This document shows, piece by piece, positions 26,156-51,307 of a DNA stretch of 64,000 nt. Made by a program: the position numbers and the translations under genes. This stretch comes from Eledone cirrhosa (lineage: Eukaryota). The stretch lies in NCBI GenBank assembly GCA_964016885.1, contig OZ024761.1:22568001-22632000 (forward strand), written 5' to 3'. Within the stretch, counting starts at the first letter, position 1. Each line of letters opens with the position of its first letter. The notes beneath the pieces are model-generated. The model did not search any database. It had not been told where the DNA came from and saw only the letters and a list, made by a program, of their open reading frames with translations.

Positions 26156-26197
<42 letters not shown>

Positions 26198-26278
26198 ACA
26201 TCCATCCATCCATGTTACTAATCTTAGTTTCTGCTGCTCTTCCCCACCCCCTTCGGAAACCATTGTTATTTCTCACAG

Positions 26279-26500
26279 AGCCCATTCCAGTGAAGAAAGT
26301 AGAGAACCCTTATGCAGTCCAGAGACCTCATGCCACACACTCATTGCTGCAAAGACAAGGATCTTTCAGGGGATTCGAGAAACTACATGAAACCTCTTCT
26401 CCTTTCAAACGGTCGGTCTCTCTAAGATTGAACGAACTCCCATCAACCTTAAGACGACAGAACGCAGTTCTCGAATCTCCACCTCATGGAGGTGGGAAGT
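26279..26500 (+). CDS. numb: Numb exon: NumbF domain
   Basis: cacAG acceptor and GTAAGT donor at 26501, phase 1-1. Encodes AVQRPHA...LQRQGSFRGF...SPFKRSVSLRLNELPSTLRRQ (NumbF signature). Confidence 0.96.
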
Positions 26501-26649
26501 GTAAGTTGGGCATTTTTTTTATTTCTATTTTTATTTTATTTTATTTTATTTTATTTTATTTTATTTTATTTTATTTTATTTTATTTTATTTTATTTTATT
26601 TTATTTTATTTTATTTTATTTTATACTTTTTTACTTGTTTTTGCAGACA

Positions 26650-27980
26650 TTGGACTGTGACTATGCTGGAAAACCACCTTGATTTAGTTGGGGTTCCTCT
26701 GAAGGGTCTTTGGAGTCACATTACTCAATAGAATACATAGCTCAGAGATCAGAGAGTCACTCCAAGTAGAGCTGCTACTTCTCTGAATTGAGAGATCACA
26801 GCTCTGATACTACAGACATGTGGTTAGAATGTCTGAGGAAAGAATCTCTGAATTGAGAGATCACAGCTCTGATACTATGGACATGTGGTTAGAATGTCTC
26901 AGTAAAGTATCTCTGAATTGAGAGATCACAGCTCTGATACTACAGACATGTGGTTAGAATGTCTCAGGAAAGAATCTCTGAATTGAGAGATCACAGCTCT
27001 GATACTACAGACATGTGGTTAGAATGTCTTGGGAAAGAATCTCTGAATTGAGAGATCACAGCTCTGATACTATGGACATGTGGTTAGAATGTCTGAGGAA
27101 AGAATCTCTGAATTGAGAGATCACAGCTCTGATACTACAGACATGTGGTTAGAATGTCTTGGGAAAGAATCGCTGAATTGAGAGATCACAGCTCTGATAC
27201 TACAGACATGTGGTTAGAATGTCTTGGGAAAGAATCTCTGAATTGAGAGATCACAGCTCTGATACTACAGACATGTGGTTAGAATGTCTTGGGAAAGAAT
27301 CTCTGAACTGAGAGATCACAGCTCTGATACTACAGACATGTGGTTAGAATGTCTGAGGAAAGAATCTCTGAATTGAGAGATCACAGCTCTGATACTACAG
27401 ACATGTGATTAGAATGTCTCAGGAAAGAATCTCTGAATTGAGAGATCACAGCTCTGATACTACAGACATGTGGTTAGAATGTCTGAGGAAAGAATCTCTG
27501 AATTGAGAGATCACAGCTCTGATACTACAGACATGTGGTTAGAATGTCTTGGGAAAGAATCTCTGAATTGAGAGATCACAGCTCTGATACTACAGACATG
27601 TGGTTAGAATGTCTTGGGAAAGAATCTCTGAATTGAGAGATCACAGCTCTGATACTACAGACATGTGGTTAGAATGTCTGAGGAAAGAATCTCTGAATTG
27701 AGAGATCACAGCTCTGATACGACAGACATGTGGTTAGAATGTCTTGGGAAAGAATCGCTGGACAGATTTTACAGGCAAAAACCAACCGGTAGAAGACCCG
27801 AGGGTAGACCTGGGGCAAGATGGTTGGATAACATCCATAAGCTTCACTGGTCTCGCTTGGGGATCCAGCTGGATCAGTTGGAGATGGTTGCTTCTGACAA
27901 GACCTGCTGGGGGGGGGGGGGGGGGGGTTGAGGACTGACCCCAACAACCTTCCCAGGAATAAGTAGAAGAAGAAGAAAAA
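26650..27980 (+). mobile_element. RTE-type LINE 3' end with an internal 65-bp tandem expansion (~15 copies, 26781-27756)
   Basis: The unit translates to IERSQL*YYRHVVRM. It is followed by KPTGRRPEGRPGARWLDNI and a (GAA)n tail. Confidence 0.75.
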
Positions 27981-28043
27981 GAAGTTTTTAATCGACTTCT
28001 ACATCCTTTGTCTCCACTAGCTGATACTTATTTTATCACATAA

Positions 28044-28079
<36 letters not shown>

Positions 28080-28658
28080 TTCCTTTGTGTGATAGCTATG
28101 GCGAAAGAGGTTGTATGGTGGACGAGGTTGAAAGGGCTGAGGTCAGACACCTTTCTCTCCGACCAACAACTGATTCTCTTTTTTCAAATACCACTTTGGA
28201 AGAAGAATCAGGATGGAAAGAGAGGTGCTGTACCCCAGGATGGAGAGAGAGGTGCTGTACCCCAGGATGGAGAGAGAGGTGCTGTACCCCAGCAAGTTTT
28301 ATGAAAGGTGGGTGAAAGTGGTGAGAATGGCCCGAGTGAATGGGCCGTCTCTCTATATCAGCCTGTAGGTTGAGGAAAAGGAGGAGGAGAGGAAAGGAGT
28401 ACAAACTCTTCGTACTCCTGGAGATGAGGGTTGCACATTTTTTCGGGGGTATGTGTTACCCATATGTAATGTCTCCCCCCTGTTGGGGAAAATCGACTAA
28501 TTTTTTAAATTGCATTTGTGATAATAATTTACACGTTTTTATTGTATGTAAACTTCCCCCTTTGTATTTGTCCCCTTCTTTTGTGCCCCTGTGGCTAATA
28601 AATACACATATCTATCTATCTTTCTATCTATCTATCTATGTTGTCTTGTCTTTTACAG

Positions 28659-28910
28659 TGGGTAGTCCCATACCAGAGCTGTCCCCTTCAGATGAAAACC
28701 CAGACTCTGTCGCCCAGATGTGTCAGCAGCTGTCAATGGGTCTGCGTGCTCTCAACACAGATGATCCCTTTGCCAGTGTCCCCCACAGTACACTCCACTC
28801 CCTCCACTGTCCCTCCTCCGGGGTCATCAACACGGGGGCTTCATTCCAACAGAGTCCTACACATATCTTCAGTAACCATGGCAACCAGTCTGTGAACACT
28901 TCCTCGCAAG
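28659..28910 (+). CDS. numb: Numb exon: Pro/Ser-rich region
   Basis: ttttacAG acceptor and AAG|GTAACG donor at 28911, phase 1-1, open frame. Encodes SPIPELSP...DSVAQMCQQLSMGL...DDPF. Confidence 0.9.
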
Positions 28911-29086
28911 GTAACGTCTTCCTCTCTCTCGTGTGTGTGTGTGTGTGTGTGAGTGTGAGTGTGCATGCATGTGTGTGGGCATGTGTGTGTATGTGTATGT
29001 GAGTGAGCATGCTTATGTGTGTATACCTGTATGTGTGCTGTGTGAACATATGGTCAAAAACACATGCATATATGCATGTACAGTGA

Positions 29087-29130
<44 letters not shown>

Positions 29131-29142
29131 ATATATATATAT

Positions 29143-29235
<93 letters not shown>

Positions 29236-29241
<6 letters not shown>

Positions 29242-29525
29242 TAATAAATGGAAACTATATTTATAAAACCATAATTATTTTATTATATATATTTCAAGGG
29301 CGACCAAGCCAATCTTGGTGCGCTTTCATCAGATAAAATACAAAATTTGTTTTATAAATAATAACATAACCATAGAAAACAACCTTGACGGTTGAAAATT
29401 CGCTGGATAGTCAAATTTTGTATTTTATCTGATGAAAGCGCACCAAGATTGGCTTGGTTGCCCTTGAAATATATATAATAAAATAATTATGGTTTTATAA
29501 ATATAGTTTCCATTTATTAATATAT
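29236..29525. mobile_element. Inverted pair of family A hammerhead-bearing Penelope-like termini
   Basis: Arms of ~110 bp with cores at 29292-29332 (-) and 29429-29469 (+), embedded in (TA)n. Single copies at 42264-42304 (-) and 51141-51181 (+). Confidence 0.72.
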
Positions 29526-29600
29526 TGTGTATTTACTCCAGTAATCAGTTATAAACTTTTAAGTTTGTTGGAATCCCAACAAATTAAATATAACTTCTAC

Positions 29601-29636
<36 letters not shown>

Positions 29637-29645
29637 TTTTTTTTT

Positions 29646-29830
29646 TAGAAAGTGAACAACACAATATATAACTACTCCATTACCAAAGGTTTCAGGACCC
29701 CAGACAATTTTAAATCTCATTTCATATTTTCTACTCTGTCTGCTGAATGATCCAGACGTATATTATTATTGTCTGGGATCCAGAAACCTTTGGTAATGGA
29801 GTAGTTATATTTTGTGTTGTTTACTTTCTA
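29646..29830 (+). mobile_element. Inverted-repeat element with degenerate hammerhead, family I
   Basis: CTACTCTGT-CTGcTGA...GAAACC-ttt-GGTA-ATGGAGTAG at 29731-29804, with ~60-bp inverted arms. Confidence 0.5.
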
Positions 29831-30142
29831 ATTAAATAGCTCTGTTCTATATATAGAGCACTCTTTTTTCCTTTGCTTTTTCTTTGGAATTACCTAACAC
29901 ACACACGCACAGAGGAAGTTATAGTTCACTTGAAGCATTGTGTAATGAGGTATAAACGTTTGTATTTGTAAAGCCAAAACAATGCAGGTATGGACATAGA
30001 ATATAAATGCAAATGCAAAAGATATTGTTGACAATTAGTCTTTTACCTTAGATTTATTTAAATGTCCTTAATTTTCGAGATAATATCTCTTCTTCGGAGG
30101 GAAGTAAAGCGGTTAAACCAGTGTTCTAAATAGCTTGCCAGG

Positions 30143-30189
<47 letters not shown>

Positions 30190-30196
<7 letters not shown>

Positions 30197-30395
30197 CGAA
30201 GGAAATGTGGTAAGGAACCAGATGGACCATAACGCACCAAATTACTCAATACTTAGGGTAGTAGAGTGGGTAATAGGAACGAGTAGGACCCCGACGGCTG
30301 AGCTCAAGCCGTTTCGACGGCTAATTCTGAACTAGTCCAGAATTAGTCGTCGAAACGGCTTGAGCTCAGCCGTCGGGGTCCTACTCGTTCCTATA
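30190..30395. mobile_element. Family F palindromic element carrying the 3' half of a hammerhead
   Basis: GAAACGGCT..AGCCGTC-GGGGTCC on both arms; the CTGANGA box is absent. Relatives at 21106-21300, 51545-51590, 54705-54750 and 55475-55625, all abutting (TA)n. Confidence 0.55.
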
Positions 30396-31474
30396 TATAT
30401 ATAGAGAGAGAGAGAGAATAAGGAAATACAAAGTTTAGATGATAAAGTCCTTTATTGCTAAGGCTGTGATACATATTTTGAAGACGACATTGGTTACGCA
30501 ATACAGTGTAGAAGCCAGCGCCATAATAAAGTTACAATGAAGGAGGTAATCCAAAATTGAAGTGACAAGGGAGCAGACAAACAGCGATGTTCGTTAAATG
30601 AATACATGTTGAGTTCTTGAATTAAATTACATCAGTGTTTTTACAATATATATATATATGTGTATATATCATGAATATGTGACCTTAGGTTTTGAGGTCC
30701 AGTTATGGCCACCACTGTCAAGTGGTGAAACTGTTGTAATACTAGACTCTCATCAGGTGCTAGGACAAGATTACAAAAACTCACGGAAAATGGAGTTATT
30801 CCATAGAGAGCTCTTTTTCAAGATCAAGGGAGGCAACTCTCAAGATTTGAATGCTGGGGGTTAGGATCTTTGAAATGTATGTATTTTGTGAGCTAACATT
30901 TTTTTTTTTTTTTTTTTTTTCGTAATTTTAAATAATTGTTTCTACTTTTGGCACAGGCCAGCAATTACCCCAGTGTATTACTGGTACTTTATCTTATCGA
31001 CCCCGTAAGGATGAAAGGCAAAGTCAACCTCGGAGGGATTTGAACTCAGATCGTAAAGGGACATAACTATGCTGGAAAACATGGCGTCCGACCCTCCACC
31101 GATACTGCCAATCCACCGCCCTACCATGGTGTCCGACCCTCTACCGACCCTGCCAATCCACCGCCAATTTAAGTAAATAATACACTCCAAAAACAAAGCT
31201 AACAATAAATCAAACATCTGGTGGATAACACCTTCGGATACCGTCATTAAATAAAGCTAATTAACAAACTAAATGTCTATACTAGATCCAAGACATCCTC
31301 TGGTTCTTCTCCACAGTTTTGTATCTTAACCCCCGGGCTGGTTTCAGGGGTTTCCCCCCCGGGCTAGTTTCAGGGGTTTTGTATTAAAAAGTTTAGCAAT
31401 TTAATTTTCATTGTTGTTGTCGATTTTTGTATTGTTTATGGAGTTGTTTTATTGTTTTTTGTTGTTTGTTTCAG

Positions 31475-32238
31475 TGAACGCCCATAAAGGAAGTGAATTG
31501 AAGGGTTCCGACGGCACAAACCCGTGGGCAACGACAAACAATTGGTCCACGCCACCATCGTCTGCTGCACCGACTGCATCTACGAACCCATTCCTTGCTA
31601 CGAACCCCGCTGTGAACGGCGTGCCTTTTGCTGCCAACGACAGACTACCAAGCAGTGGCAGTGGCCACCTAACCCGCGCCCCGCAGTTGGCACACCTGCG
31701 CAGCCATTCCATAGACACATGCGAACTACTAACCAATGGTCGACAGTCAAACCGCAAGCCAACGCTTCACGAGTTGGCGAACCAACAGCGCAGTTTTCAG
31801 CACCACAGCACCGGCAGCAGCAATAACAACAACAACAACAACAGCAACAACAACAACAACAACAACAACGGCTGGGGTCCAAGCATGGACGCCGCCACCG
31901 CCAGCAATAAAACAACAGTAAGGGCAGCAGCAAGTGGTGGTGGTGGTGGTGGTGGTGGTGGTGGTGTTGCACCTTCAACACAGCTCCACCCGCCATCATC
32001 AGGCAAAGCTTCGGCTGCTGTTACTGCTGTCAGCAGTGGTGGTGGTGGGAGTGGTAACAGCAGGCTGACAGCGATGTCAACGTCTAACAGAAGCTCACAT
32101 GATTCCTCATCCTCTTCTTCGCCGCACATAGACCCGTTTGACGTGGCCTGGGCTGCTAAGGCGGCTAGTCTACAAACCAACCCTTTTCAAGGCCCTCACC
32201 AGCCTGACAAAGAAAAGACTTTCCAAGTACAATTATAG
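31475..32238 (+). CDS. numb: Numb terminal coding exon with DPF/NPF motifs
   Basis: tttcAG acceptor, phase 1. Ends DPFDVAWAAK...TNPFQ...KTFQVQL-TAG, a typical Numb C-terminus. Contains poly-Asn and poly-Gly tracts. Confidence 0.93.
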
Positions 32239-38900: not shown

Positions 38901-41531
38901 TATCATATCAACATATGTTATCCTCAGTCTTCCTATGTGTCACTGGAAGTACCTGCCTACCAGAGAAGCATTATATATTAAAATAGAAAAATTAGAGCTG
39001 TTTCTCATTTAATATATATACATAGTAATAATAATAAATGTGAAGACCAAAATCCGAAGAGGGCTCGCTAAGGATAAAATATATATCAAATATATAAAAC
39101 CATAGAGCAAATATTTATTAAAATAACAGATTAAAGTTTAAGCAAAGAATCGCTGCTTTCACCCTTAACGGGATCTTCTGAATATCCCATTAAGGGTGAA
39201 AGCAGCGATTCTTTGCTTAAACTTTAATCTGTTATTTTAATAAATATATATATATATATCCTGTTGTTATTGTTATAATCAAATGGTTAGTATCATCATC
39301 ATCATCATCATCATCATTTTACGTCCACTTTTCCCCTGCTTGCAAGGGTGGGACGGGAACTGATTCTGGCTTGATTACAACAGCTGGATGCCCTTCCTAA
39401 CACCAACCTCATTTACAGTGAGTGCTGGGTGCTTTTTTGCCGTGGCACCTCCACAACCACTTTGCAGTGGAATGATAGGGACCCCAGTCCCTATCATCTC
39501 ATTTCTACAGCTGAGTAAACTGGAGCAATGTGAAATAAAGTGACTTGCTCAAGGAAACAACACATCACCCGATCTGAAAATTGAACTCACAACCTTTCGA
39601 TTGCAAGGCCAATGCTCTAACCACTAAGCCATGTGCCTCCATAGTATATGTTAATATATTCTTTTTATTGATTTATATTCACCATTCCTGCCGTAGGTAA
39701 AATGTTCCTCACTCTGGTGGTTTTTAATCCATTATGATCATTAAAGCTTTTTCTCATTTATAAAGTTGTTGTTGTATCATCAGTCTGAGGAGCAGATTGA
39801 TAATGTAGTCGTGTCCATAACTTCTATTAGTGACTTTGAGCCAATCCTCTGTGAAACACATGTAACAGGTTTATACACAATAAAACACTAAATACATGTA
39901 AATGAAACTTCATTTTTATTAATATGCCTCTGGATAGAGTGTTTTGATATCAGCAGCAGTAATTTACTGAATCACCTACCCTATACAGTATATATATATA
40001 TATATATATATATAGGTAAGTTATTCCGGTTGAATCGGAGGTAACCACAGTAATCGGAGGCAACTCAATACATAGCAGAGTATAAAAGTTTTAATATAGA
40101 TGCGATTCTACAGGACTAGAACTGTTTCATTCTTTAGAAATCAAGAGGAATCTGGCTGTCCAAAATAAATGTTGTGGTATTTATATCTTTTCAGGTGGTA
40201 GGAGAGGGTGGGGAGTGGGATGGGTGGAGGTCATTGGTAGAAAGAAAAGGGAATTCTTTAAAAGCTAATTCTTTAAGGGTATAATTTATATTTAGTGCGA
40301 CAAAGGCAGAAAGAATTCTATAAACAAGTTCAAATTGGGGTGCCACTCTTTATTTTTAAGTTTCTCTTAAGCTAACAATGCCTATATTTCAGGTGTCTAT
40401 AAGATGGTTGGGGGTCGGTCATGGTTGATGGATTTAAAGAAACGGGAAATTCTTTAAAAGCTAATTCTTTAAAGCTCTACTTAGAGTGACAAAGGCCAAG
40501 AGAATTCTATAAACCAGTTCAAATATTGGGTACCTATCATTATTGTCATGTTTCTCTTAAGCTATATTTCACCCATCCCACTCCCCACCCTCTCCTACCA
40601 CCTGAAAAGATATAAATACCACAACATTTATTTTGGACAGCCAGATTCCTGATCATTTCTAAAGAATGAAACAGTTCTAGTCCTGTAGAATCTCATCTAT
40701 ATTAAAAATATATATATATACACTGTTGTTGACCTTTCATGGTAGCACCTATACAATAGTTAGAACTCAATGTAATCCGTTAGCAAGTAGTTCAGAGAGA
40801 TCCAGTAATAGTATACAGTTCAGTAACTGCTATAGATCAGTCAATATATCGATATGATCAACCCAACCCTCCGAAACGATCGTAAAACAATGAATGAGGT
40901 ATGTAAAATAACTTGCCTTTGTTATCATTGTTAACTAAAATAATATGTAATATATATATACACACGGCCATTCTCCGTCAATGTTTCCATCTCCAAAATT
41001 TACTAAATCGCCTATATAAAATAAGTTTAATTAAATTTAAAAAATACATGCTGGGGCTCTCATTAAACTTTTACAGTCTTTTTCAAAGAGATATAAAAGG
41101 AAATAGAAAAAGATTAATAGGACACCTTACATGTATCTCCCACACAAGGACAACCTACAAACCAGGATCTCACCATCTCTAGTACTTCCCACTAGGCTAC
41201 CAAGACACCTACAGAAATCTACTGAAAATTCATCATTATAAACCTACTTTCAAAATAAAATAAAATTAATTAAATTATTGGCCCTAGGTGATACTAGCTG
41301 GCCGTAGGAAATCCATTACTTTGATCAGGGTTTGGCTGGCCATAGTTTATGCTGTTAAACTGCTCCAATCACCCTCTCACCTGGCACTGACTCTGGTTTA
41401 ACTGGCTGTAGAGGATCCTACGTGATGTTTACGTCCTTAAACTGCTCCAATCACCCTCTCACCTGGCACTGACTCTGGTTTAACTGGCTGTAGAATATCC
41501 TATGAAATGTACATGCCCTTAAAATTATTGT

Positions 41532-41568
<37 letters not shown>

Positions 41569-43066
41569 CTTCTCCCTGTTGTTTATTAAACTCTAGCTGC
41601 TGTTTGTACCATGACACAGATTTAAGTTACCGGGGTGTTAGTTGAAGCTGGGGTAAACTGATTAAGTTATACCGGTAACTTAATCAGTGTTACACCGGTA
41701 TTTCTCTCACAAATTATTTGACATTCGTTCATAACAGGTAACTTTTCTTTATGCCGTCTGTGTTGGGGTCTAACTGTAGTTTAGCTTGCTAGGGGTCATA
41801 GAACTCGTTGTTAATATCTTTATTGTTATATATATACACACAATATATACACACCTTAATATAAAAGAGAGATATCTTGTTGTGCATCACACATAAACAA
41901 AAGCTGACAATAAAGTGTAAATACAGCAATGAAATAAAGGTTTATTACACAGGAATGTTTATTGATACTCATTTTATAACATCAAAGAAGAACACCCCGG
42001 GTATGTTAACCAAGCTGACTTCTATTTCTAGCAAGTGGGAGACCACCACAAGGGATTCTCTCTGCGTTCGCTGTCAACGATGACCGCAGCCAGCGTCTCT
42101 CTTAAATGGAACGCTGGATTACACACACACATACATAAATACACATACATACATACATAAATACACATACACTTACACACGTACATTTATATATATATAT
42201 ATATACGATATATTAACAAATGGAAACTATATTTATAAAACCATATTTATTTCATTATACATATTTCAAGGACACCAAAGCAAATTAGGGTGCGCTTTCA
42301 TCAGATAAAATATAATATAGATCAGTTTTATAAACAAATATTGACATACCCTTAAAGAATGCGACCATGTCGGTTGGAAGCTCCCTATATATTGTATTTT
42401 CACTTCAAAAATTTGTTGAGTGCTTTATATCAGTTATAAAAATATTTGCTTGTTGTATCCCAACAAATTAAATATAACTTCTACAGATATATATATATTT
42501 ATATATATGGTGGCTGCCAACTCGTTTTCGAGTACGGCCACTACTTTATATCCATGTAGGAGAACCCTTACCGATGCGCTGAACGAGTGTGACTTTTTAC
42601 TCCAGCCAGCGACTTGAAAACTCTGGTACAAACACTACACCTGTGACAATTATTGACACATAGTGCTGGGCCCATGGTACCATGTGATGACAAGTGCAGA
42701 GAGATCTCCAGATATAAAGCAATGCCTGTGCCGTGAAGCTTTTATAGTGAACAAAGGCACTGCACAAAGCCAGTCCCACTCTCTTAACCAAGATGATATT
42801 TACCAAAAAGAAGAACAAGTCAACATCATTGGATACCATCAGGGTTGCAGGTGTTATATCAGAGTTTCCCTTCTCCTAGAATTCTGCCTTGACAAAGGCT
42901 AAGGGGTCATCTCTCCCGGTGATTTTGGATGGCCATTGACTCTTAAGAGCTCCTTTGTCCTTTGACAGGGTTTGTTTTTAGTCCTGCGGGATGTCCAAAG
43001 TCACCCTCCTCACCAAGAAACCTTGGTGGGGTTGCCAGTTTAGTCGCCAACGACCCGACCATGAGT

Positions 43067-43102
<36 letters not shown>

Positions 43103-43801
43103 GGCGTTCCTTACTTTTAGCGGTGTCAAGAATGAAAGTAAATTTATTTTCATTTTCGAACGTCGTGTTTACATTTTGTGTGTGTTTAGATCTAAATTAG
43201 TTACTGAGATTAAAGAGAAAATCAGAGCCTCTGTCGTTTTAACTGATTATATATATATATGTGTGTGTATAGTTGACGGTTGAGAGAAGAGTACTCAATA
43301 CCGAAGTAATCTTGTAATGAGGCTTGCAGAATGGTGAGTCCATCATTGTCGAGATAGAAGAATCCAAATACTTCCATAGAAAGTATCCTCGTAGCCTGTG
43401 GAGACAAGGCCACTGGGTCTTCGGCGCTTTTGAACGCCATTCTGGACGCTGCTGCCTTGTAGAAGTCCCAAATCGAAGCCGTGACACTCTCGTCCCCATC
43501 ATTCAGCAGTGGATTTTGCCAGGCAGCCGCATCACCTCCGATAGTTGGGCTTCCTATTCGGAAATTGAGGAAATTGAAGGTGGGATTTACGTTCATGATG
43601 TTGTGGTGCACGAACGGAACTTTGTAGATCCTGCGGACCCTGATGTGCACACACAGCTCATAGAGAACGCATGGAGCCGGGCAAAGAAGAAGCTTCGTCG
43701 CCAGCATGTTTCGCTCAAACGCACACAAAATGTGAACACGACGTTCGAAAATGAAAATAAATTTATTTTCATTCTTGACACCGCTAAAAGCAAGGAATGC
43801 C
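43103..43801 (+). mobile_element. Merlin (IS1595/ISXO2-like) DNA transposon, internally deleted
   Basis: Inverted termini of ~85 bp (GGCGTTCC...GGAATGCC). Transposase core VEIEESK..RKY...WVFG..ER...TLVPII..WILPGS.I.SD.W..Y...H...FVDP...HTQ.IE..W at ~43345-43705. Confidence 0.88.
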
Positions 43802-43824
43802 AGAGGGACTTACATTATTGACAG

Positions 43825-44015
43825 AGGAGAGGGATTAGCAGTATCGGTAGAGGGTCGGACGCCATGCTTTCCAGCATAGTTACGTCCCTTTACGATCTGA
43901 GTTCAAATCCCGCCGAGGTTGACTTTGCCTTTCATCCTTACGGGGTCGATAAAATAAAGTACCAGTAATGCACTGGGTAATTGCTGGCCTTGTGCCTAAA
44001 GTAGAAATAATTATT
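43825..44015 (+). mobile_element. tRNA-derived SINE family 1 (Nin-like core)
   Basis: A/B boxes (GAGTTCAAATCC), core GCCTTTCATCCTTACGGGGTCGATAAA and an (ATT)n tail. Copies at ~8375, 8610, 8815, 15540, 23640 (+) and 30935, 35255, 49595, 54822 (-). Confidence 0.85.
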
Positions 44016-44189
44016 GACAGAGGAGAGGGACCATATATTATTGACAAAGAAGAGGGACCATACATTATTGACAGAGAAGAGGGGCTATATATTGACAGAG
44101 GAAAGGGACCATATATTATTGACAGAGGAGATAATTATCTATATCTATATATATAATTATATATATATAATATAAAAGATTTGAACTTC

Positions 44190-44340
44190 CAACATCCTTT
44201 TGAGAAACCTGGACCCACTACATCTCTGCAATGACACACACTTTACAGCCAGGTGGAAGATCTACCATCTCATACAGGTCACTATACTTGGAGGCAATCG
44301 TCAAGGAGAAAATGCATTTATTCCCAAGATTCCTCTACCG
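44190..44340 (+). mobile_element. Helitron Pif1-helicase fragment
   Basis: ILLRNLDPLHLCNDT and IQVTILGGNRQGENAFIPKIPL match Helitron helicase motifs (LLRNL...LCNGT; ILTG...G..VFIPRI.L). Confidence 0.7.
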
Positions 44341-44359
44341 AAATTGAGCCCTAGCAATA

Positions 44360-44520
44360 GCTGAGGATTTAACCCTGCGATAGACTGGTGTCCTGTCCAT
44401 AAGTACGAGCTGTAACTGGGGATTTAACCCAGCGATGGACTGGTGTCCTGTCCAGTGGGGGTAGTATTGTACTGTCTGTCAGTCACTTCATGATACGGAA
44501 ACCGGGCTCGAGCAGACTTC
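44360..44520 (+). mobile_element. V-domain-like SINE fragment with duplicated motif
   Basis: Two copies of ACCC(T/A)GCGAT(A/G)GACTGGTGTCCTGTCCA. Confidence 0.5.
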
Positions 44521-45249
44521 ATACTCCAGAAATCCTTAGATATTCTTGTTGGTGATTTATTTATTAGCTGTAGCTTTAATTCATCTGTTTACACCTCTGG
44601 TAATAATTAATAGGTTTTTGTTTCACTTTCGGCGAAATATAGATAAGAAACATTTGTGGCTTTACTACACCCTTAAATTTTAATTTCAGTTATTGAATAT
44701 CTCTAACGTAGTATAATAACTGGAGCTACTAAACTTGTGTTTCCTAACCTGAGTGATTCAACTGTTGGGTGGGTGGTGGGTGATATAGGACTTAAGAAGG
44801 CATTTCAAAATATGATACCTGAAAAATAAATTCAAAGGAGATATGCAAGGAATCTGTATTAAAAAAATAGGAAAACAGGAGGCTAAATGGGAACCAGTAA
44901 CAAACATTTGCCAAATATATTTGGTATACTTTTGAATATTTATTATATAGCTGGGTGGTGGAAAATTATACCATGTGAAAGTGGGCGATGAAGCAAAAAA
45001 AAAAAAAAAGATTGCGAAAGTCCCCTGAACTAAATCCTTTTAACACTTCCTACGGGATTCCCTAGCTGGACACTTTATTTTGAGCTTTGAGTAGAAGTAG
45101 ATGTAGTAAAAACAGGTCCTTAACTGTAAAGACTAACAAGAGTTAAGTTGTATAGACGTAAAATGTTATGGTTTATTCAATCTAAAGAGAAGGAAAAAGG
45201 AATTAAAATCTAGTGAAAAAAAAAATTAACGTTTAAACATAGATATTTC

Positions 45250-46844
45250 AATATATGGTGTTATATAGATATAATTTATTTGTTAAAATAATAATTAAAT
45301 AAAATGTTTCATAAAATCCAACTGGGAATTGAACCTATAACAACACAATGTTAGTTTCAATGTCCAGCACTCCTACCAAATGAGCTACCAGGACAATTAC
45401 TAAACACCTCTTAAAAAATAAGGTATTTAAAGATTTATTTATTTAGTTATTAAAGTATAACTGTCGTAGAATGTAAACATACAGATGTGTACATACTAGA
45501 AGCACAGAGACCAACAGATATATGCATGCTAGACACAGCGGCTGGAGTTTAGTAAACAGTTCGATTTACAATTATTATTATATATATTTATTTATGTAGT
45601 TATATATATATTTATTTATATAGTTATAAGTATAACTGTCGTAGAATGTAAACATACAGATGTGTACATGCTAGAAGCACAGAGACCAACAGATAATTAA
45701 ATTGCAGATATATGCATGCTAGACACAGCGGCTAGAGTTTAGTAAACAAATAAGGAGGACATATATATATAATAATAATTGTAAATCGAACTGTTTACTA
45801 AACTCCAGCCGCTGTTTCTAGCATGCATATATCTGCAATTTAATTTTCTGTTGGTCTCTGTGCTTCTAGCATGTACACATCTGTATGTTTACATTCTGCG
45901 ACAGTTATACTTATAACTATATAAATAAATATATATAATAATAATTGTAAATCGAACTTTAGCTGTAGTACAGCAGTACTATTAGATATATTTGAGTACT
46001 CGATAGATCGAAAGTTAAAAACAAACATTAAATCCACAGTTAACAGCAATAAAGACGACCGAAGACACTAACTATACACACAACAAAATTACGATAGATA
46101 CAGAAAGGTTTATATATATATATAAATATCAATAAAAATTGAATTTGACTGCTATTTCGAGCATAAACTAGAAACCGGAAGTGGACAAAATTGAAAAACT
46201 TCTTCTTTTTCCCCCTCTAACTTTTTAAAAATCGAAATTTTTCTCAAGAAAAAGTTAGAGGGTGAAAAAGAAGAAGTTTTTCAATTTTGTCGACTTCCGG
46301 TTTCTAGTTTATGCTAGAAATAGCAGTCAAATAAATTTATAAATGTGTGTGTGTGTGTGTGTGTATGTGTAAAAAAAAAAAATTTATTTGACTGCTATTT
46401 CTAGCAAAAACTAGAAACCGGAAGTGGACAAAATTGAAAAACTTCTTCTTTTTCACCCTCTAACTTTTTTCTAAACAAAAATCGAAATTTTTCTGAAAAA
46501 AAGTTAGAGGGTGAAAAAGAAGAAGTTTTTCAATTTTGTCCACTTCCGGTTTCTAGTTTTTGCTAGAAATAGCAGTCAAATAAATTTTTTTTTTTTACAC
46601 ATACACACACACACACACACACATTTATAAATTTATTTGACTGCTATTTCTAGCATAAACTAGAAACCGGAAGTGGACAAAATTGAAAAACTTCTTCTTT
46701 TTCACCCTCTAACTTTTTTTCAGAAAAATTTCGATTTTTGTTTAGAAAAAAGTTAGAGGGTGAAAAAGAAGAAGTTTTTCAATTTTGTCCACTTCCGGTT
46801 TCTAGTTTTTGCTAGAAATAGCAGTCAAATAATTTTTTTTTTTT

Positions 46845-46876
<32 letters not shown>

Positions 46877-47790
46877 TTTATAAATTTATTTGACTGCTAT
46901 TTCTAGCATAAACTAGAAACCGGAAGTGGACAAAATTGAAAAACTTCTTCTTTTTCACCCTCTAACTTTTTCTTGAGAAAAATTTCGATTTTTAAAAAGT
47001 TAGAGGGGGAAAAAGAAGAAGTTTTTCAATTTTGTCCACTTCCGGTTTCTAGTTTATGCTCGAAATAGCAGTCAAATTAAATTTTTATTGATATTTATAT
47101 ATATATATAAACCTTTCTGTATCTATCGTAATTTTGTTGTGTGTATAGTTAGTGTCTTCGGTCGTCTTTATTGCTGTTAACTGTGGATTTAATGTTTGTT
47201 TTTAACTTTCGATCTATCGAGTACTCAAATATATCTAATAGTACTGCTGTACTACAGCTAAAGTTCGATTTACAATTATTATTATATATATTTATTTATA
47301 TAGTTATAAGTATAACTGTCGCAGAATGTAAACATACAGATGTGTACATGCTAGAAGCACAGAGACCAACAGAAAATTAAATTGCAGATATATGCATGCT
47401 AGAAACAGCGGCTGGAGTTTAGTAAACAGTTCGATTTACAATTATTATTATATATATATGTCCTCCTTATTTGTTTACTAAACTCTAGCCGCTGTGTCTA
47501 GCATGCATATATCTGCAATTTAATTATCTGTTGGTCTCTGTGCTTCTAGCATGTATACATCTGTATGTTTACATTCTACGACAGTTATACTTATAACTAT
47601 ATAAATAAATCTTTAAATACCTTATTTTTTAACAGGTGTTCAGTAATTGTCCTGGTGGCTCATTTGGTAGGAGTGCTGGACATTGAAGCTAACATTGTGT
47701 AGTTGTAGGTTCAATCCCTAGTTGAGATTATAAAAATAATTTTATTGAATATTATTTTAACAAATACATTATATCTATATAACGCCAAAC
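45250..47790. mobile_element. Foldback-like nested inverted-repeat element (~2.5 kb)
   Basis: Identical ORFs at 45840-46049 (-) and 47171-47380 (+). Four ~190-bp hairpins in the centre. Diverged outer arms contain a tRNA-like segment. Confidence 0.8.
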
Positions 47791-48369
47791 ATAGTGAGTT
47801 CCAATCTGGCTGACATGCAGAATAAGTGAATAAGGTAAGACAATATCGTAGTAGATTAGAATATTACACAGACAGGCACACAAGATTGAGGTAATACGAA
47901 ACCAAGTAGGTCCCCCCTCACACAAATAGAAATGACGTGACCGTTTCAAATGTGATTCGATCACTTTTGAAGCGGTATTTCTTTGCAAATGTCTCTTAGA
48001 AAACAACAATACAATCAAAATAACCAAACAATTCGTTTATAAATATTTTTTTTATTAAGTAGGGAAAGTTTCCATGAGTTACAAAGATGTCAGGTTAACG
48101 ATATATATTTATTACACAGGAACTTATATAGATATGTACATATTCTCCAGGAGGAATTGGTACAACTCTCAATTGGAGCTAGCCCCTGCAAGATCAGCAT
48201 AAATAATGTGGAACCTTGAAATAGTTTTCATGTCTCAGGGAAGCCCCGCATGAAATATATTTTTTCTATCTCTAGAGCAGTGGTTCCCAAACTGTGAGCT
48301 GCAAAAGAATAAGATTACGTTTTAAGATGTGAAAAATACAAAACTGACATTGGTATAAAAGTTCAAATA

Positions 48370-48620
48370 TAGCTGTGGCCACAAACCTGGGCTCAACTGC
48401 CCGCAATGTAGAGGAGAGTAAGATAATCAAATACTGGGGCCTGACAGACTTCTTCCACTCCGTCGAGATCTCTGGTGTCCTTGGTCCCTGCACTGCTGAT
48501 TTCCTCTGTAAAGTAGGGAGGAAAGATGGTGAGAGCCCCGTGAGGAGGGATGACTGTTGCAGTAGGTGTCCCTGGCCATTCTCTGTGGTAACGCTTTTGC
48601 CGTGTTTTCCGCGGGGTGCG
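48370..48620 (+). mobile_element. CRE/R2-group retroelement C-terminal (restriction-like endonuclease) remnant
   Basis: EESKIIKY..L..F..VEISGVLGP.TADFL..VG, then a frameshifted VSLAILCGNA resembling the 'LS.AIQRGNA' terminus. Confidence 0.55.
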
Positions 48621-49473
48621 GCTTCATTCGCCCTCTAACCTGGCATCAACCAGGATTTAGCTGGCCATAGGATATGCTATGTGAAGTATATTATATATCC
48701 TAAAACTGCTTCTAGTGACCAGGATTTAGCTGGTTGTAGGAGATCCATTACTTTAGCCCTCTAGCCTGACATTGACCAGGGTTTGGATGGCCGTAAGAGA
48801 CCCTACGTTAAGTATACAGCCTAAAAATGCTTCTTTTTCCCTCTAATCTGGTACTGACTAAGGTTTATCTGGTCCTAGGAAAGGGTAATGCCGTTACTTT
48901 TGCCCCCTAACCTGGCATTCCAATACTAATTTGAAGCAGAGTAACGTCAAGCTTTGGAGGTTTGGTTAGATAGCAATGAATGGTTCACTTGCAAGTTGTT
49001 GCTATATGAAAGAGATGACAGATCCAACACAACCAAGAGAAGAAATCAGGTATGGATTGAGACGTGCCTCACCTTTGTCCTGTCGTCTGGACAGTCACCA
49101 AAGGATCAACAATTTCAATGGACAACTATAAGTGCACTCCCTAACAACACACACAAAATACGGCACGGCCAGACTTGCCTCATAGCCTGGACGACCCGTC
49201 TGACCCATGCAAGCATCAGACGTCAAACGTTTGACATTTATTAGTAAGTGAAAGACAACGAATATGAATAACAAATGTGAATAATACATAATGGAGACAC
49301 AGTAAAATATATAAAATAGCATCCCAACAGATATGGGAAACTGATTGATGTGTATTAATGGTAAAGTATGGTGCAACAATACATCACTCCTTCCTACAGT
49401 GATGAGGAATTCCAAGTGTAAATCCTGTGTATTTCTGTATAAACAACATTGGTAAATTAAATAAGCATCGTAC

Positions 49474-49519
<46 letters not shown>

Positions 49520-51307
49520 AAATAAGCATTGTACGTATATATATATATTATATACTCGGGGAGGGTCATATTGTTGTAATATTGCCAGAAATAATAATTG
49601 TTTCTACTTTAGGCACAAGGCCAGCAATTACCCAGTACATTACTGGTATTTTATTTTATCGACCCCGTAAGGATGAAAGGCAAAGTTAACCCCGGCGGGA
49701 TTTGAACTCAGATCATAAAGGGACGTAACTCTATGCTTCAAAGCATGGTGTCCGACTAAGGTGAAACAGATCCAACACTACTAAGAGAAGCAAGAAGTCA
49801 GGTATGGATTGAGACGATTTCATATCAAAAACCTAGCAAAACAAATATATACATATATATATTGTTATATTTGGGGAGGGTCATATTGTCATAATATTGC
49901 CAGAAATAATAACAGTACACACGTAATATATTTGTTATAATGATAACATATATATTATATCATTGTTATTTAACGTCCATTCACAACGATGGCGTGGTTG
50001 GACGACTGATCGTAGATCAAGTTTGTATTTTTGGTTTAAAAAATTATAAACAAAGTAAAGGTCAGTAATTCGGAGGAAACATATCTTTAGTATATGTTTT
50101 AGTTATAAATTCTAAAATAACAAAGAATTACTATGGTAAGGGCACCCTGCTGTAGAAACCAGCTACTGTTGGAAGCCCTGCGCTTGTTGTCATGGCACCA
50201 AACCAACCACTTGACAATGTGAAACCGGGCACTTTTGTGACGTCATCAACCCTAACCCCTTCACAGGTTGGGCTGGATATTTTTTGTCGTGTCACCAGCA
50301 CGACCGCCGTGAAGGGTTGGGTCTTTTTGTCATGTTACCTTACAGAGAGGATTCGGTGCCCTTTTGTCATGAACCCGTCATGGCCATCTTTTGTCAATCA
50401 AGGAGATGCTAAAATCATCGGTAGAAGTAGTAATACAGGAAGGAGTCATACCCAATGACTGGCACAGCAGTACAGGGGTAAAGATGATGGTCTAGAATGG
50501 TTTGGACTATTAAATACCTCTTCATATGAACACAATATCCAAAATGTGAGAGTTATTGATAAATGGTGTCTCTAATAAAATGTATGTGTATAGAGAGAAG
50601 GTTTAGTGTCTTAGATAGTCCTAATATACAGCAAATAAAACATTGCATACCTCTTTACATGAACATAATATCCCAAATGATATCTTCGGTGTATGCTGAA
50701 TGTCAACAATTCAATTAAAAAAAAAAAATGAACTCCATAAAGAGGAGGTAATTCAGATGAAGGGAGATAACTCTAATAAAAATTAAAAATAAAAATGGTT
50801 AAGGATTCTTTGCGCTGCCCGAGACACAGAGCAGGATATAGTACCGGTCGCAATTAAGCCAGTGCCCTCCCAACGATTCGATCTTCAGACACATAGAATG
50901 GTCACGCCATCCATAAATAGGCGACGAAGATCGCAACGTTACGTGTAGCGCCACGTATAAGCACAACAGAACTGAGTAAATTAGTTATACTTATATGTAA
51001 AATTTTATATATTTAAAAATATATATATATATATATATATATAAAAGTAAAGAAAGTGAGATAAGACGCCTCAAAATATATTCCGTGAGTTATCTCACTC
51101 TCATTCCGTTTATATATATATATATGTACATGTATTTTATCTGATGAAAGCGTACCAATGTTGTCTTGGTTGTCCTTGAAATATATATAATAAAATAAAT
51201 ATGGTTTTATAAATATAGTTTCCATTTATTTAATATCATTGTATATATATATATATGTATACACATATATATATATAGATAGATGTGTGTATCTATCTAT
51301 CTATCTA

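What the first reader, a model, noticed from the sequence alone, without database searches (positions are those of the whole stretch)
45250..47790. 2.5-kb palindrome of palindromes
Seen: three levels of symmetry. (i) The whole region folds about ~46608, with near-identical ~1-kb arms (45610-46580 vs 46636-47610) and visibly diverged outer arms (45250-45450 vs 47610-47790). (ii) Each arm holds its own hairpin of a ~140-bp unit (45620-45950; 47265-47610), with one extra unit at 45455-45600. (iii) The centre is four ~190-bp hairpins (46144-46331, 46387-46580, 46636-46829, 46889-47076), where H1/H4 and H2/H3 are mutual reverse complements, separated by (GT)nAn spacers. No coding capacity and no clear TSD. 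Inference: a Foldback-like element built by repeated fold-back replication and homogenised arm to arm; a potential cruciform, fragile site or long-dsRNA source.
Basis: partly seen in the sequence, partly recalled or inferred. Interest (0 to 1): 0.72.

Follow-up and report, generated by a model that had tools for sequence, protein, structure and literature searches.

The report
Self-copying palindrome inside a duplicated repeat
The 2.5-kb nested palindrome is real and has three sister copies nearby on the same contig; it is likely not a jumping gene but the middle of an older duplicated repeat that likely grew through DNA-copying errors at its hairpins, with the two arms likely overwriting each other since, which is a known kind of mutation rather than a new system.

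Summary
Confirmed. The inner arms match at 966 of 975 columns, the outer arms at 180 of 201; H1/H4 and H2/H3 are reverse complements. It is unlikely to be an assembly artefact: three sister copies lie within 3.2 Mb, with 3, 4 and 3 hairpins, and short-word depth in sequencing runs tracks assembly copy number.

It is not a Foldback transposon. The copies share no ends, and both flanks run on, in the same order, in older relatives that carry single-arm hairpin modules head to head. In some relatives a decayed Helitron gene follows.

Best reading (0.75): a palindrome grown in place by template switching and central deletion, then homogenised arm to arm. A 7-bp deletion and an extra inverted unit occur only in this copy, on both arms; the central loop is flipped between two sisters. 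Fragility and dsRNA are untested.

The scan has noted similar mechanisms on other DNA of this genome, but not this family. New member of a known kind; interest 0.3.

The parts
44500..45250 (+). Left flank; part of the older host repeat unit, not a target site
   Evidence: Same module precedes head-to-head single-arm H modules in L101, L102+L045, L103, L107, L108/L109 and occurs in the 6.3-kb tandem unit; shared with L016 from 45002
45251..45450 (-). Outer left arm: inverted copy of the tRNA-like outer right arm
   Evidence: 180/201 to rc(47593-47792); present in L016, absent from L017 and L018
45453..45587 (+). U0, extra U unit with a 15-bp deletion, followed by an inverted copy of the first ~30 bp of the 'mid' repeat
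   Evidence: the junction motif occurs 4 times in the genome, 3 here and 1 in L016
45603..45937 (.). Left U hairpin (U1 +, U2 -); the inverted U2 is found only in this copy
   Evidence: 146-nt arms, 97%; absent from L016, L017, L018
45940..46129 (+). 'mid': internally deleted copy of a dispersed ~250-bp repeat that sits in TA runs
   Evidence: Relatives at 68-82% on many contigs; sharp ends in an alignment of 12
46144..46331 (+). Hairpin H1, with a 7-bp loop deletion shared only with H4
   Evidence: deletion in 2 of 14 hairpins, both in this copy
46332..46386 (+). Spacer S1, (GT)n-An
46387..46580 (+). Hairpin H2; the spacers switch direction across it, so it is the likely original centre
46581..46635 (-). 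Spacer S2: the present geometric centre, not self-complementary
46636..46829 (-). Hairpin H3, reverse complement of H2
   Evidence: 193/194
46830..46888 (-). Spacer S3
46889..47076 (-). Hairpin H4, reverse complement of H1
   Evidence: 187/188
47091..47280 (-). 'mid', right arm; carries the variant that sisters L016 and L018 have only on the left arm
47283..47619 (.). Right U hairpin (U3 +, U4 -); U3 is identical to rc(U2)
47593..47792 (+). Outer right arm with a degenerate tRNA-like stretch (about 47648-47722); continues into the flank in relatives
   Evidence: not called as a tRNA by ARAGORN or Rfam; the A/B-box resemblance is by eye
47793..48620 (+). Right flank of the host unit; leads to a decayed Helitron RepHel gene in relatives but not here
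48621..48880 (+). Degenerate 82-bp repeat where this copy leaves the RepHel-bearing relatives

Best explanation
The nested palindrome is the remodelled middle of an older, non-coding, locally duplicated repeat unit, and it likely grew in place by template switching at inverted repeats, with the arms likely copying from each other afterwards. Shown: older relatives have the same left and right flanks around single-arm H modules set head to head; a related 6.3-kb unit carries a near-perfect 368-bp H hairpin; the four C22 copies carry 190-bp hairpins that lack about 150 central bases. Inferred order: (1) the spacer of a head-to-head H pair was lost, giving the long hairpin; (2) an off-centre deletion left a ~26-nt loop; (3) a larger inverted duplication gave H+ S+ Hc S- H- inside mirror arms; (4) the block was duplicated within about 3 Mb, each copy with different ends; (5) each copy then changed separately, by gain of a ~249-bp unit (right side here, left side in L017), flipping of the central loop (L016 vs L018), an extra inverted U unit here, and arm-to-arm overwriting. 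No function is needed to explain it.
For: Four copies at 19.45, 21.31, 21.755 and 22.61 Mb of contig C22, same orientation, with 3, 4, 3 and 4 hairpins; 14 matches of 88% or more to 'mid' fall in these four loci and the next best is 82% or less. Features found only in this copy and on both arms: the 7-bp loop deletion (2 of 14 hairpins) and the inverted U2/U3 segment (exact match 2 times here, 0 in sisters). The 'mid' variant that L016 and L018 carry only on the left arm is on both arms here. Inner arms differ at 3 of 726 sites, outer arms at 16 of 173 (Fisher p 1e-9). L016 has its own two-base change on both outermost U units. U2 is bounded by copies of the same ~28-bp piece, as template switching requires. 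Same module order in older units on C18, C23-C27. Arm homogenisation and spacer inversion by template switching are described in PMC8604942, stabilising asymmetric deletions in PMC8701086 (passages).
Against: Homogenisation is not uniform: L016's inner arms differ at 7 of 405 sites, more than its left arm differs from this copy (4 of 398), and L017's arms differ at 6 of 382 plus 4 indels. The order of events is reconstructed from four copies in one assembly, and template switching cannot be told from break-induced gene conversion or crossover by sequence. No read spans the structure. One depth point is low: 13.5 where about 26 was expected. The 8-mer near both ends has only a 1.4% chance level. 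What the H module originally was is not settled.
Confidence: 0.75

Rival explanations
1. The palindrome is cargo or 5' region of a non-autonomous Helitron that moved the whole block by rolling-circle transposition; the hairpin modules would act as its end or origin signals.
For: A decayed RepHel follows the right flank in L016 and L018 (PF14214, E 1.6e-22) and in tandem units of 8.2 kb on C23, about 15-16 kb on C24, and on C18 and C1 (Pif1 domain). Helitrons make no TSD, capture sequence and form tandems (PMC7492417 passages).
Against: 0 of 6 dispersed RepHel copies carry H, U, mid or the outer arm within about 6.7-7.4 kb upstream; they share a different upstream sequence. No hairpin-plus-CTRR end was found in 5 regions scanned. 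The four copies have different ends. This copy has no RepHel. The block shared by L016 and L018 contains a Merlin fragment and a satellite, as a passive duplication would.
Confidence: 0.12
2. It is a Foldback (Mutator-type) DNA transposon with long modular terminal inverted repeats and an 8-bp target duplication.
For: Modular arms with tandem subunits and no ORF resemble Tetris and FB (PMC4079207 passages). AAACATAG lies near both ends.
Against: The 8-mer is 8-14 nt outside the left arm and overlaps the right arm's end. Sequence runs through the right 8-mer in 4 of 4 older relatives listed, and 0 of 27 other left-flank copies continue into the right flank (one of the 28 rows is sister L016). 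L018's left arm stops inside 'mid' and L017 has no outer left arm. The four close copies are confined to 3.2 Mb.
Confidence: 0.05
3. The H hairpin began as a head-to-head pair of Penelope-like element ends in TA repeats, and the rest grew around it.
For: The 368-bp hairpin has TA runs on both sides. Inverted truncated copies and microsatellite targets are typical of PLEs (PMC8557442 passages). Earlier notes report many such palindromes in this genome.
Against: No hammerhead core in 6 regions searched, though Naiad PLEs lack it. The 368-bp hairpins have the same centre in 5 of the 6 short copies printed in full (one has internal deletions) and homologous flanks beyond the TA runs, so they descend from one event. 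No RT or GIY-YIG match in the 6.3-kb unit or the flanks. This would explain only the seed.
Confidence: 0.05
4. The core is a fold-back chimera or assembly error.
For: No read or contig spans it. Large near-perfect palindromes are common in this assembly. The three runs that hold most of it may be the source sample, and their library type is not on record.
Against: Four copies with distinct variants and hairpin numbers. The arms differ at fixed sites. Word depth is about 6-7 per assembly copy in 13 of 14 segments, and the segment found only on both arms of this copy has depth 19.8 at mean multiplicity 2.4. RAD reads of another study show a U-to-mid joint like L017's.
Confidence: 0.03

Closest known systems
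Inverted-repeat template switching: arm homogenisation and spacer inversion (PMC8604942, passages); ODIRA inverted triplication (PMC10766183, passages)
   Same: Arms overwritten from each other, flipped central loop, inverted middle copy (U0+, U1+, U2-) bounded by short repeats
   Different: Those papers treat arms of 7-16 bp or kilobase CNVs in yeast; here four nested levels from 28 bp to 1.2 kb, read from paralogues, with no experiment
Conversion-maintained palindromes of primate X and Y chromosomes (PMC8327919, passages)
   Same: Lower arm-to-arm than between-copy divergence (this copy and L018), spacer inversion, rearrangement concentrated at the centre
   Different: Arms are about 1 kb, not 8-140 kb; no genes in the arms; homogenisation incomplete in L016 and L017
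Palindromes stabilised by asymmetric central deletion (review PMC8701086, passages)
   Same: The 190-bp hairpin is the 368-bp near-perfect hairpin minus an off-centre ~150 bp
   Different: Natural and germline-fixed, not a transgene; the event is inferred
Tribolium madens satellites with three levels of dyad symmetry (PMC13081366, passages)
   Same: Palindromic monomers in short arrays that switch direction at a fixed point, with variable copy number on each side
   Different: Only 3-4 monomers and 4 loci; no sign of centromeric scale
Foldback transposons such as Tetris and FB (PMC4079207, passages)
   Same: Long modular inverted arms, tandem subunits, no ORF
   Different: No shared termini, no valid TSD, no empty site; flanks belong to the same older unit
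Helitron / HINE non-autonomous elements (PMC7492417, passages)
   Same: RepHel relic downstream in relatives; tandem arrays; no TSD
   Different: No Helitron ends found; dispersed RepHel copies lack the block; this copy has no RepHel

Membership tests
Foldback transposon | Long modular inverted repeats with tandem subunits around a non-coding middle | tested here: met
Foldback transposon | 8-10-bp target site duplication flush with the termini | tested here: not met
   8-mer is not flush on the left, sequence runs through it in 4 of 4 older relatives on the right, no empty site among 27 other left-flank copies; chance level 1.4%
Foldback transposon | Same termini in different copies, with unrelated flanks | tested here: not met
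   Four copies have different left ends; the right flank is shared
Foldback transposon | Autonomous partner with the same TIR ends | not tested
   No genome-wide transposase search; a Merlin fragment 1.4 kb upstream was not linked to it
Helitron / HINE | RepHel coding sequence in cis | tested here: inconclusive
   Present as a relic in L016, L018 and units on C1, C18, C23, C24; absent from this copy and L017
Helitron / HINE | 3' hairpin followed by CTRR | tested here: not met
   None found in 5 regions scanned on both strands with a simple stem rule
Helitron / HINE | Block is the normal 5' region of the family | tested here: not met
   0 of 6 dispersed RepHel copies carry H, U, mid or outer arm upstream
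Helitron / HINE | subTIR + inverted repeat + microsatellite at one end, subTIR + palindrome at the other | tested here: inconclusive
   A 14-mer recurs in short inverted pairs beside microsatellites in L079, but no matching other end was identified
Head-to-head Penelope-like ends | Inverted arms inserted in TA microsatellite | tested here: met
   368-bp form has TA runs on both sides
Head-to-head Penelope-like ends | Hammerhead ribozyme core | tested here: not met
   0 matches in 6 regions; one PLE clade lacks it
Head-to-head Penelope-like ends | Link to an RT / GIY-YIG frame | tested here: inconclusive
   None in the 6.3-kb unit or the window flanks; not searched genome-wide
Conversion-maintained palindrome | Arms of one copy closer to each other than to paralogous arms | tested here: met
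   This copy 2/398 vs 4-15 to sisters; L018 0/322 vs 3-6; not so in L016 or L017
Conversion-maintained palindrome | Derived changes shared by both arms of one copy | tested here: met
   7-bp deletion, U2/U3, mid variant
Conversion-maintained palindrome | Spacer inversion and instability at the centre | tested here: met
   Central loop minus in L016, plus in L018; 3 or 4 hairpins
Conversion-maintained palindrome | Cruciform formation or breakage in vivo | not testable with these tools
   Only a predicted fold

The most novel reading that the evidence does not exclude
The head-to-head H block is a working cis-element. Its CTTCCGG core and the 14-mer at the arm end are kept across arms that are otherwise well diverged, and the block recurs in hundreds of candidate places, in tandem arrays on the small contigs. 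It would be an origin or end signal that drives amplification of these arrays, folding repeatedly into palindromes and leaving a zone of raised mutation just outside the homogenised arms.
Probability: 0.1. Interest if true: 0.6.

Novelty: new member of a known kind. Interest (0 to 1): 0.3.

Why it matters
Mostly as a worked example. Four sister copies plus older relatives give several states of one palindrome: head-to-head pair, near-perfect hairpin, centrally deleted hairpin, nested mirror with 3 or 4 units, flipped centre, overwritten arms. These are the steps known from yeast, transgenes and sex chromosomes, here in non-coding DNA of a repeat-rich animal genome. If the fivefold higher divergence just outside the core is real mutagenesis, the series would let it be measured. 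It also warns that Foldback-like structure can arise without a transposon.

Tried and rejected
Rfam on 43000-50000: 95 matches at E up to 1, none at its gathering score, mostly generic miRNA hairpins. ARAGORN: no tRNA in the window or in 17 loci; Rfam gathering on 7 loci gave one tRNA piece, away from the hairpin. Pfam on six frames of the 6.3-kb unit and both flanks: only a Merlin-type DDE fragment. H as an independent MITE: rejected, because the flanks beyond the TA runs are homologous between copies. H as promoter of zinc-finger arrays, a lead from earlier notes: no tandem C2H2 array in 96 sequences scanned, only single motifs in 8 frames; the 14 stretches fetched later were not scanned. 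A supposed exon at 50100-50480 is a multi-copy repeat. Expression: no RNA holder listed. Contigs and RAD reads could not span the palindrome, and RAD reads did not cover the features unique to this copy. Literature searches for a description of this repeat or of such palindromes in an octopus genome found none (open-access library only). No supplements were read.

Full report
Observation. The inner arms agree at 966 of 975 columns, the outer arms at 180 of 201, H1 with rc(H4) at 187 of 188 and H2 with rc(H3) at 193 of 194. The core folds at -527 kcal/mol against -96 +/- 6 for 20 shuffles. The longest Met-started frame is 62 codons. The geometric centre lies in a 55-nt spacer that is not self-complementary, and the spacers change direction across H2. 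The window is part of contig C22 of a 3.0-Gb assembly. It is probably an octopus; that rests on my recall of the repeats and on earlier AI notes and was not tested. The locus lies about 13 kb past an exon that ends a Numb gene (NumbF matches at 26197-26679 and 28340-28999; stop at 32238; the likeness of that exon's end to the Numb C-terminus is recalled).

Sister copies. An 84-bp hairpin arm finds clusters at four places on C22, at 19.45, 21.31, 21.755 and 22.61 Mb (40 of 462 candidates scored). 'mid' and U find close matches only there, and a short-loop pattern matches 7 times, all at three of these loci. All four point the same way. Their cores are H+ S+ H+ S- H- (L018), H+ S+ H+ S+ H- S- H- (L017), H+ S+ H- S- H- (L016) and H+ S+ H+ S- H- S- H- (window). 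The simplest common form has three hairpins. The central loop is flipped between L016 and L018, and a ~249-bp unit was gained on opposite sides in L017 and here.

Artefact test. No read or contig spans the structure. Contig word depth follows assembly copy number at about 6-7 per copy in 13 of 14 segments, for example 6 at multiplicity 1.0, 26.6 at 4.5 and 65 at 10.3. One segment is low, 13.5 at 4.0. The segment that matches exactly only on the two arms of this copy has depth 19.8 at mean multiplicity 2.4. These runs may be the source sample and their library type is not on record. RAD reads of another study show a U-to-mid joint like L017's, so the family exists in other individuals, but they do not test this copy's own features.

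Arm-to-arm copying. A 7-bp loop deletion is in H1 and H4 and in none of the other 12 hairpins. The inverted U2/U3 unit is on both arms here and in no sister. Its junction motif occurs 4 times in the genome, 3 here and 1 in L016, and U2 is bounded by copies of the same ~28-bp piece. A three-base 'mid' variant that L016 and L018 carry only on the left arm is on both arms here. Inner arms differ at 3 of 726 sites and outer arms at 16 of 173. Against a tidy picture, L016's inner arms differ at 7 of 405 sites and L017's at 6 of 382 with 4 indels, more than some between-copy pairs.

Origin of the parts. 'mid' is a deleted copy of a dispersed ~250-bp repeat in TA runs. H is a shortened form of a near-perfect 368-bp hairpin that occurs once per unit in 6.3-kb tandem arrays on C22 and in copies on C24; it lacks 18 bp in one arm and about 150 bp off-centre. 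Older relatives have H as a single ~190-240-bp arm. In those relatives the order is left flank, H arms on the minus strand, H arms on the plus strand, tRNA-like piece, right flank, and on C1, C18, C23 and C24 a decayed RepHel gene (PF14214 and PF21530). Window 44500-48620 follows the same order. The palindrome is therefore the remodelled middle of a larger unit whose ancestors already held an inverted H pair.

Not a Foldback. Foldbacks have long modular TIRs and 8-10-bp TSDs (PMC4079207, passages). The structure fits, the ends do not. L018's left arm stops inside 'mid' and L017 lacks the outer left arm. An 8-mer lies near both ends, with a chance level of 1.4%. It is not flush with the left arm, the sequence runs through it in 4 of 4 older relatives on the right, and 0 of 27 other left-flank copies continue into the right flank. 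I leave it as unexplained microhomology.

Helitron and Penelope readings. The RepHel link is real for relatives. But 0 of 6 dispersed RepHel copies have the block upstream, no hairpin-CTRR end was found in 5 regions, and this copy has no RepHel. A Penelope origin of the seed hairpin, suggested by earlier notes, has TA flanks in its favour and no hammerhead core in 6 regions against it (PMC8557442 passages).

Background. Palindromes are common in this assembly: 12 of 24 other stretches (221 kb, chosen by repeat matches or as neighbours, so not random) hold one of 100 bp or more, and two hold ones of 1.9 and 3.9 kb.

Mechanism and status. Shown: anatomy, four copies, copy-specific changes on both arms, collinearity with older units. 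Inferred: spacer loss, off-centre deletion, inverted duplication, local duplication, then slippage, loop flipping and overwriting. These match template-switch homogenisation and spacer inversion (PMC8604942), inverted triplication (PMC10766183), stabilising asymmetric deletions (PMC8701086) and central instability of large palindromes (PMC8327919); I read passages of each, no supplements. Long, near-identical arms with short spacers favour breakage (PMC7999016 passages), so fragility is plausible but untested. Three-level dyad symmetry is described in Tribolium satellites (PMC13081366 passages).

Unexplained. Between L016 and L018 the outer arm and near flank differ at 39 of 690 sites, the RepHel relic at 14 of 1388 (p 2e-9) and the core at about 1.4%. 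Across three copies the edge zone has 35 two-state sites in 464 against 14 in 468 for core and U (p 0.002), spread over all three copies with no single kind of change dominating. Raised mutation beside a breaking palindrome and later conversion between copies both fit.

Verdict. Real, and a new member of a known kind. Searches of the open-access library found no description of this repeat, and the scan's own notes have none for this place or sequence. Interest 0.3.

Noticed in passing
window 26197-32238 (+): Last exons of a Numb gene (NumbF matches; final exon with NPF/DPF motifs, stop at 32238).
   Followed up: partly
window 43076-43818; L016 8767-9384; L049 1444-1959: Merlin / IS1595-type DDE transposase fragment, 95-97% identical between copies; one copy lies inside the block shared by L016 and L018.
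   Followed up: partly
G000 C22 15.12-15.20 Mb and 18.18-18.25 Mb (L019-L022); also about 17.0 and 17.7 Mb: Arrays of a non-coding 6.3-kb unit; in the two arrays read, each unit has one 368-bp hairpin, and these two arrays point in opposite directions about 3 Mb apart.
   Followed up: partly
L079-L080 (C23), L076-L078 and L093-L094 (C24), L081-L082 (C18): Tandem 8-16-kb units with a head-to-head H pair, a tRNA-like piece and a decayed RepHel; near-identical single-arm H copies also recur about every 39 kb on C20 and every 50-130 kb on C25.
   Followed up: partly
L050 4768-8706: 3.9-kb palindrome at 99.3% arm identity, about 9 kb from sister L017; each arm has a frame resembling a GIY-YIG endonuclease of Penelope-like elements (resemblance recalled, not tested).
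   Followed up: no
L031 149-2032: Another nested palindrome, 1.9 kb at 91%, unrelated in sequence to this one.
   Followed up: no
L016 5800-6600 vs L018 5760-6530; window 47595-48160: About fivefold higher divergence just outside the palindrome core than in the RepHel relic further out.
   Followed up: partly
window 45235-45242 and 47787-47794: Direct 8-mer AAACATAG near both ends of the outer arms; not a TSD by the tests made, chance level 1.4%.
   Followed up: yes
L018 4092-4565 and 5274-5673: A 103-bp part of 'mid' is tandemly repeated, 4 times on the left arm and 3 times on the right, with a matching 2-bp deletion in the innermost copy on both arms.
   Followed up: partly
window 41355-41523 and 48621-48880; L098 and L017 1-2540: 82-bp repeat beside the unit; it forms an array of about 10 kb left of sister L017.
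   Followed up: no
H arms in L043, L045, L051, L053, L068, L076, L079, L081, L090, L094 and window: CTTCCGG (reverse of an ETS-type site, recalled) is invariant in 11 of 11 aligned arms, and the 14-mer at the arm end recurs in short inverted pairs.
   Followed up: partly
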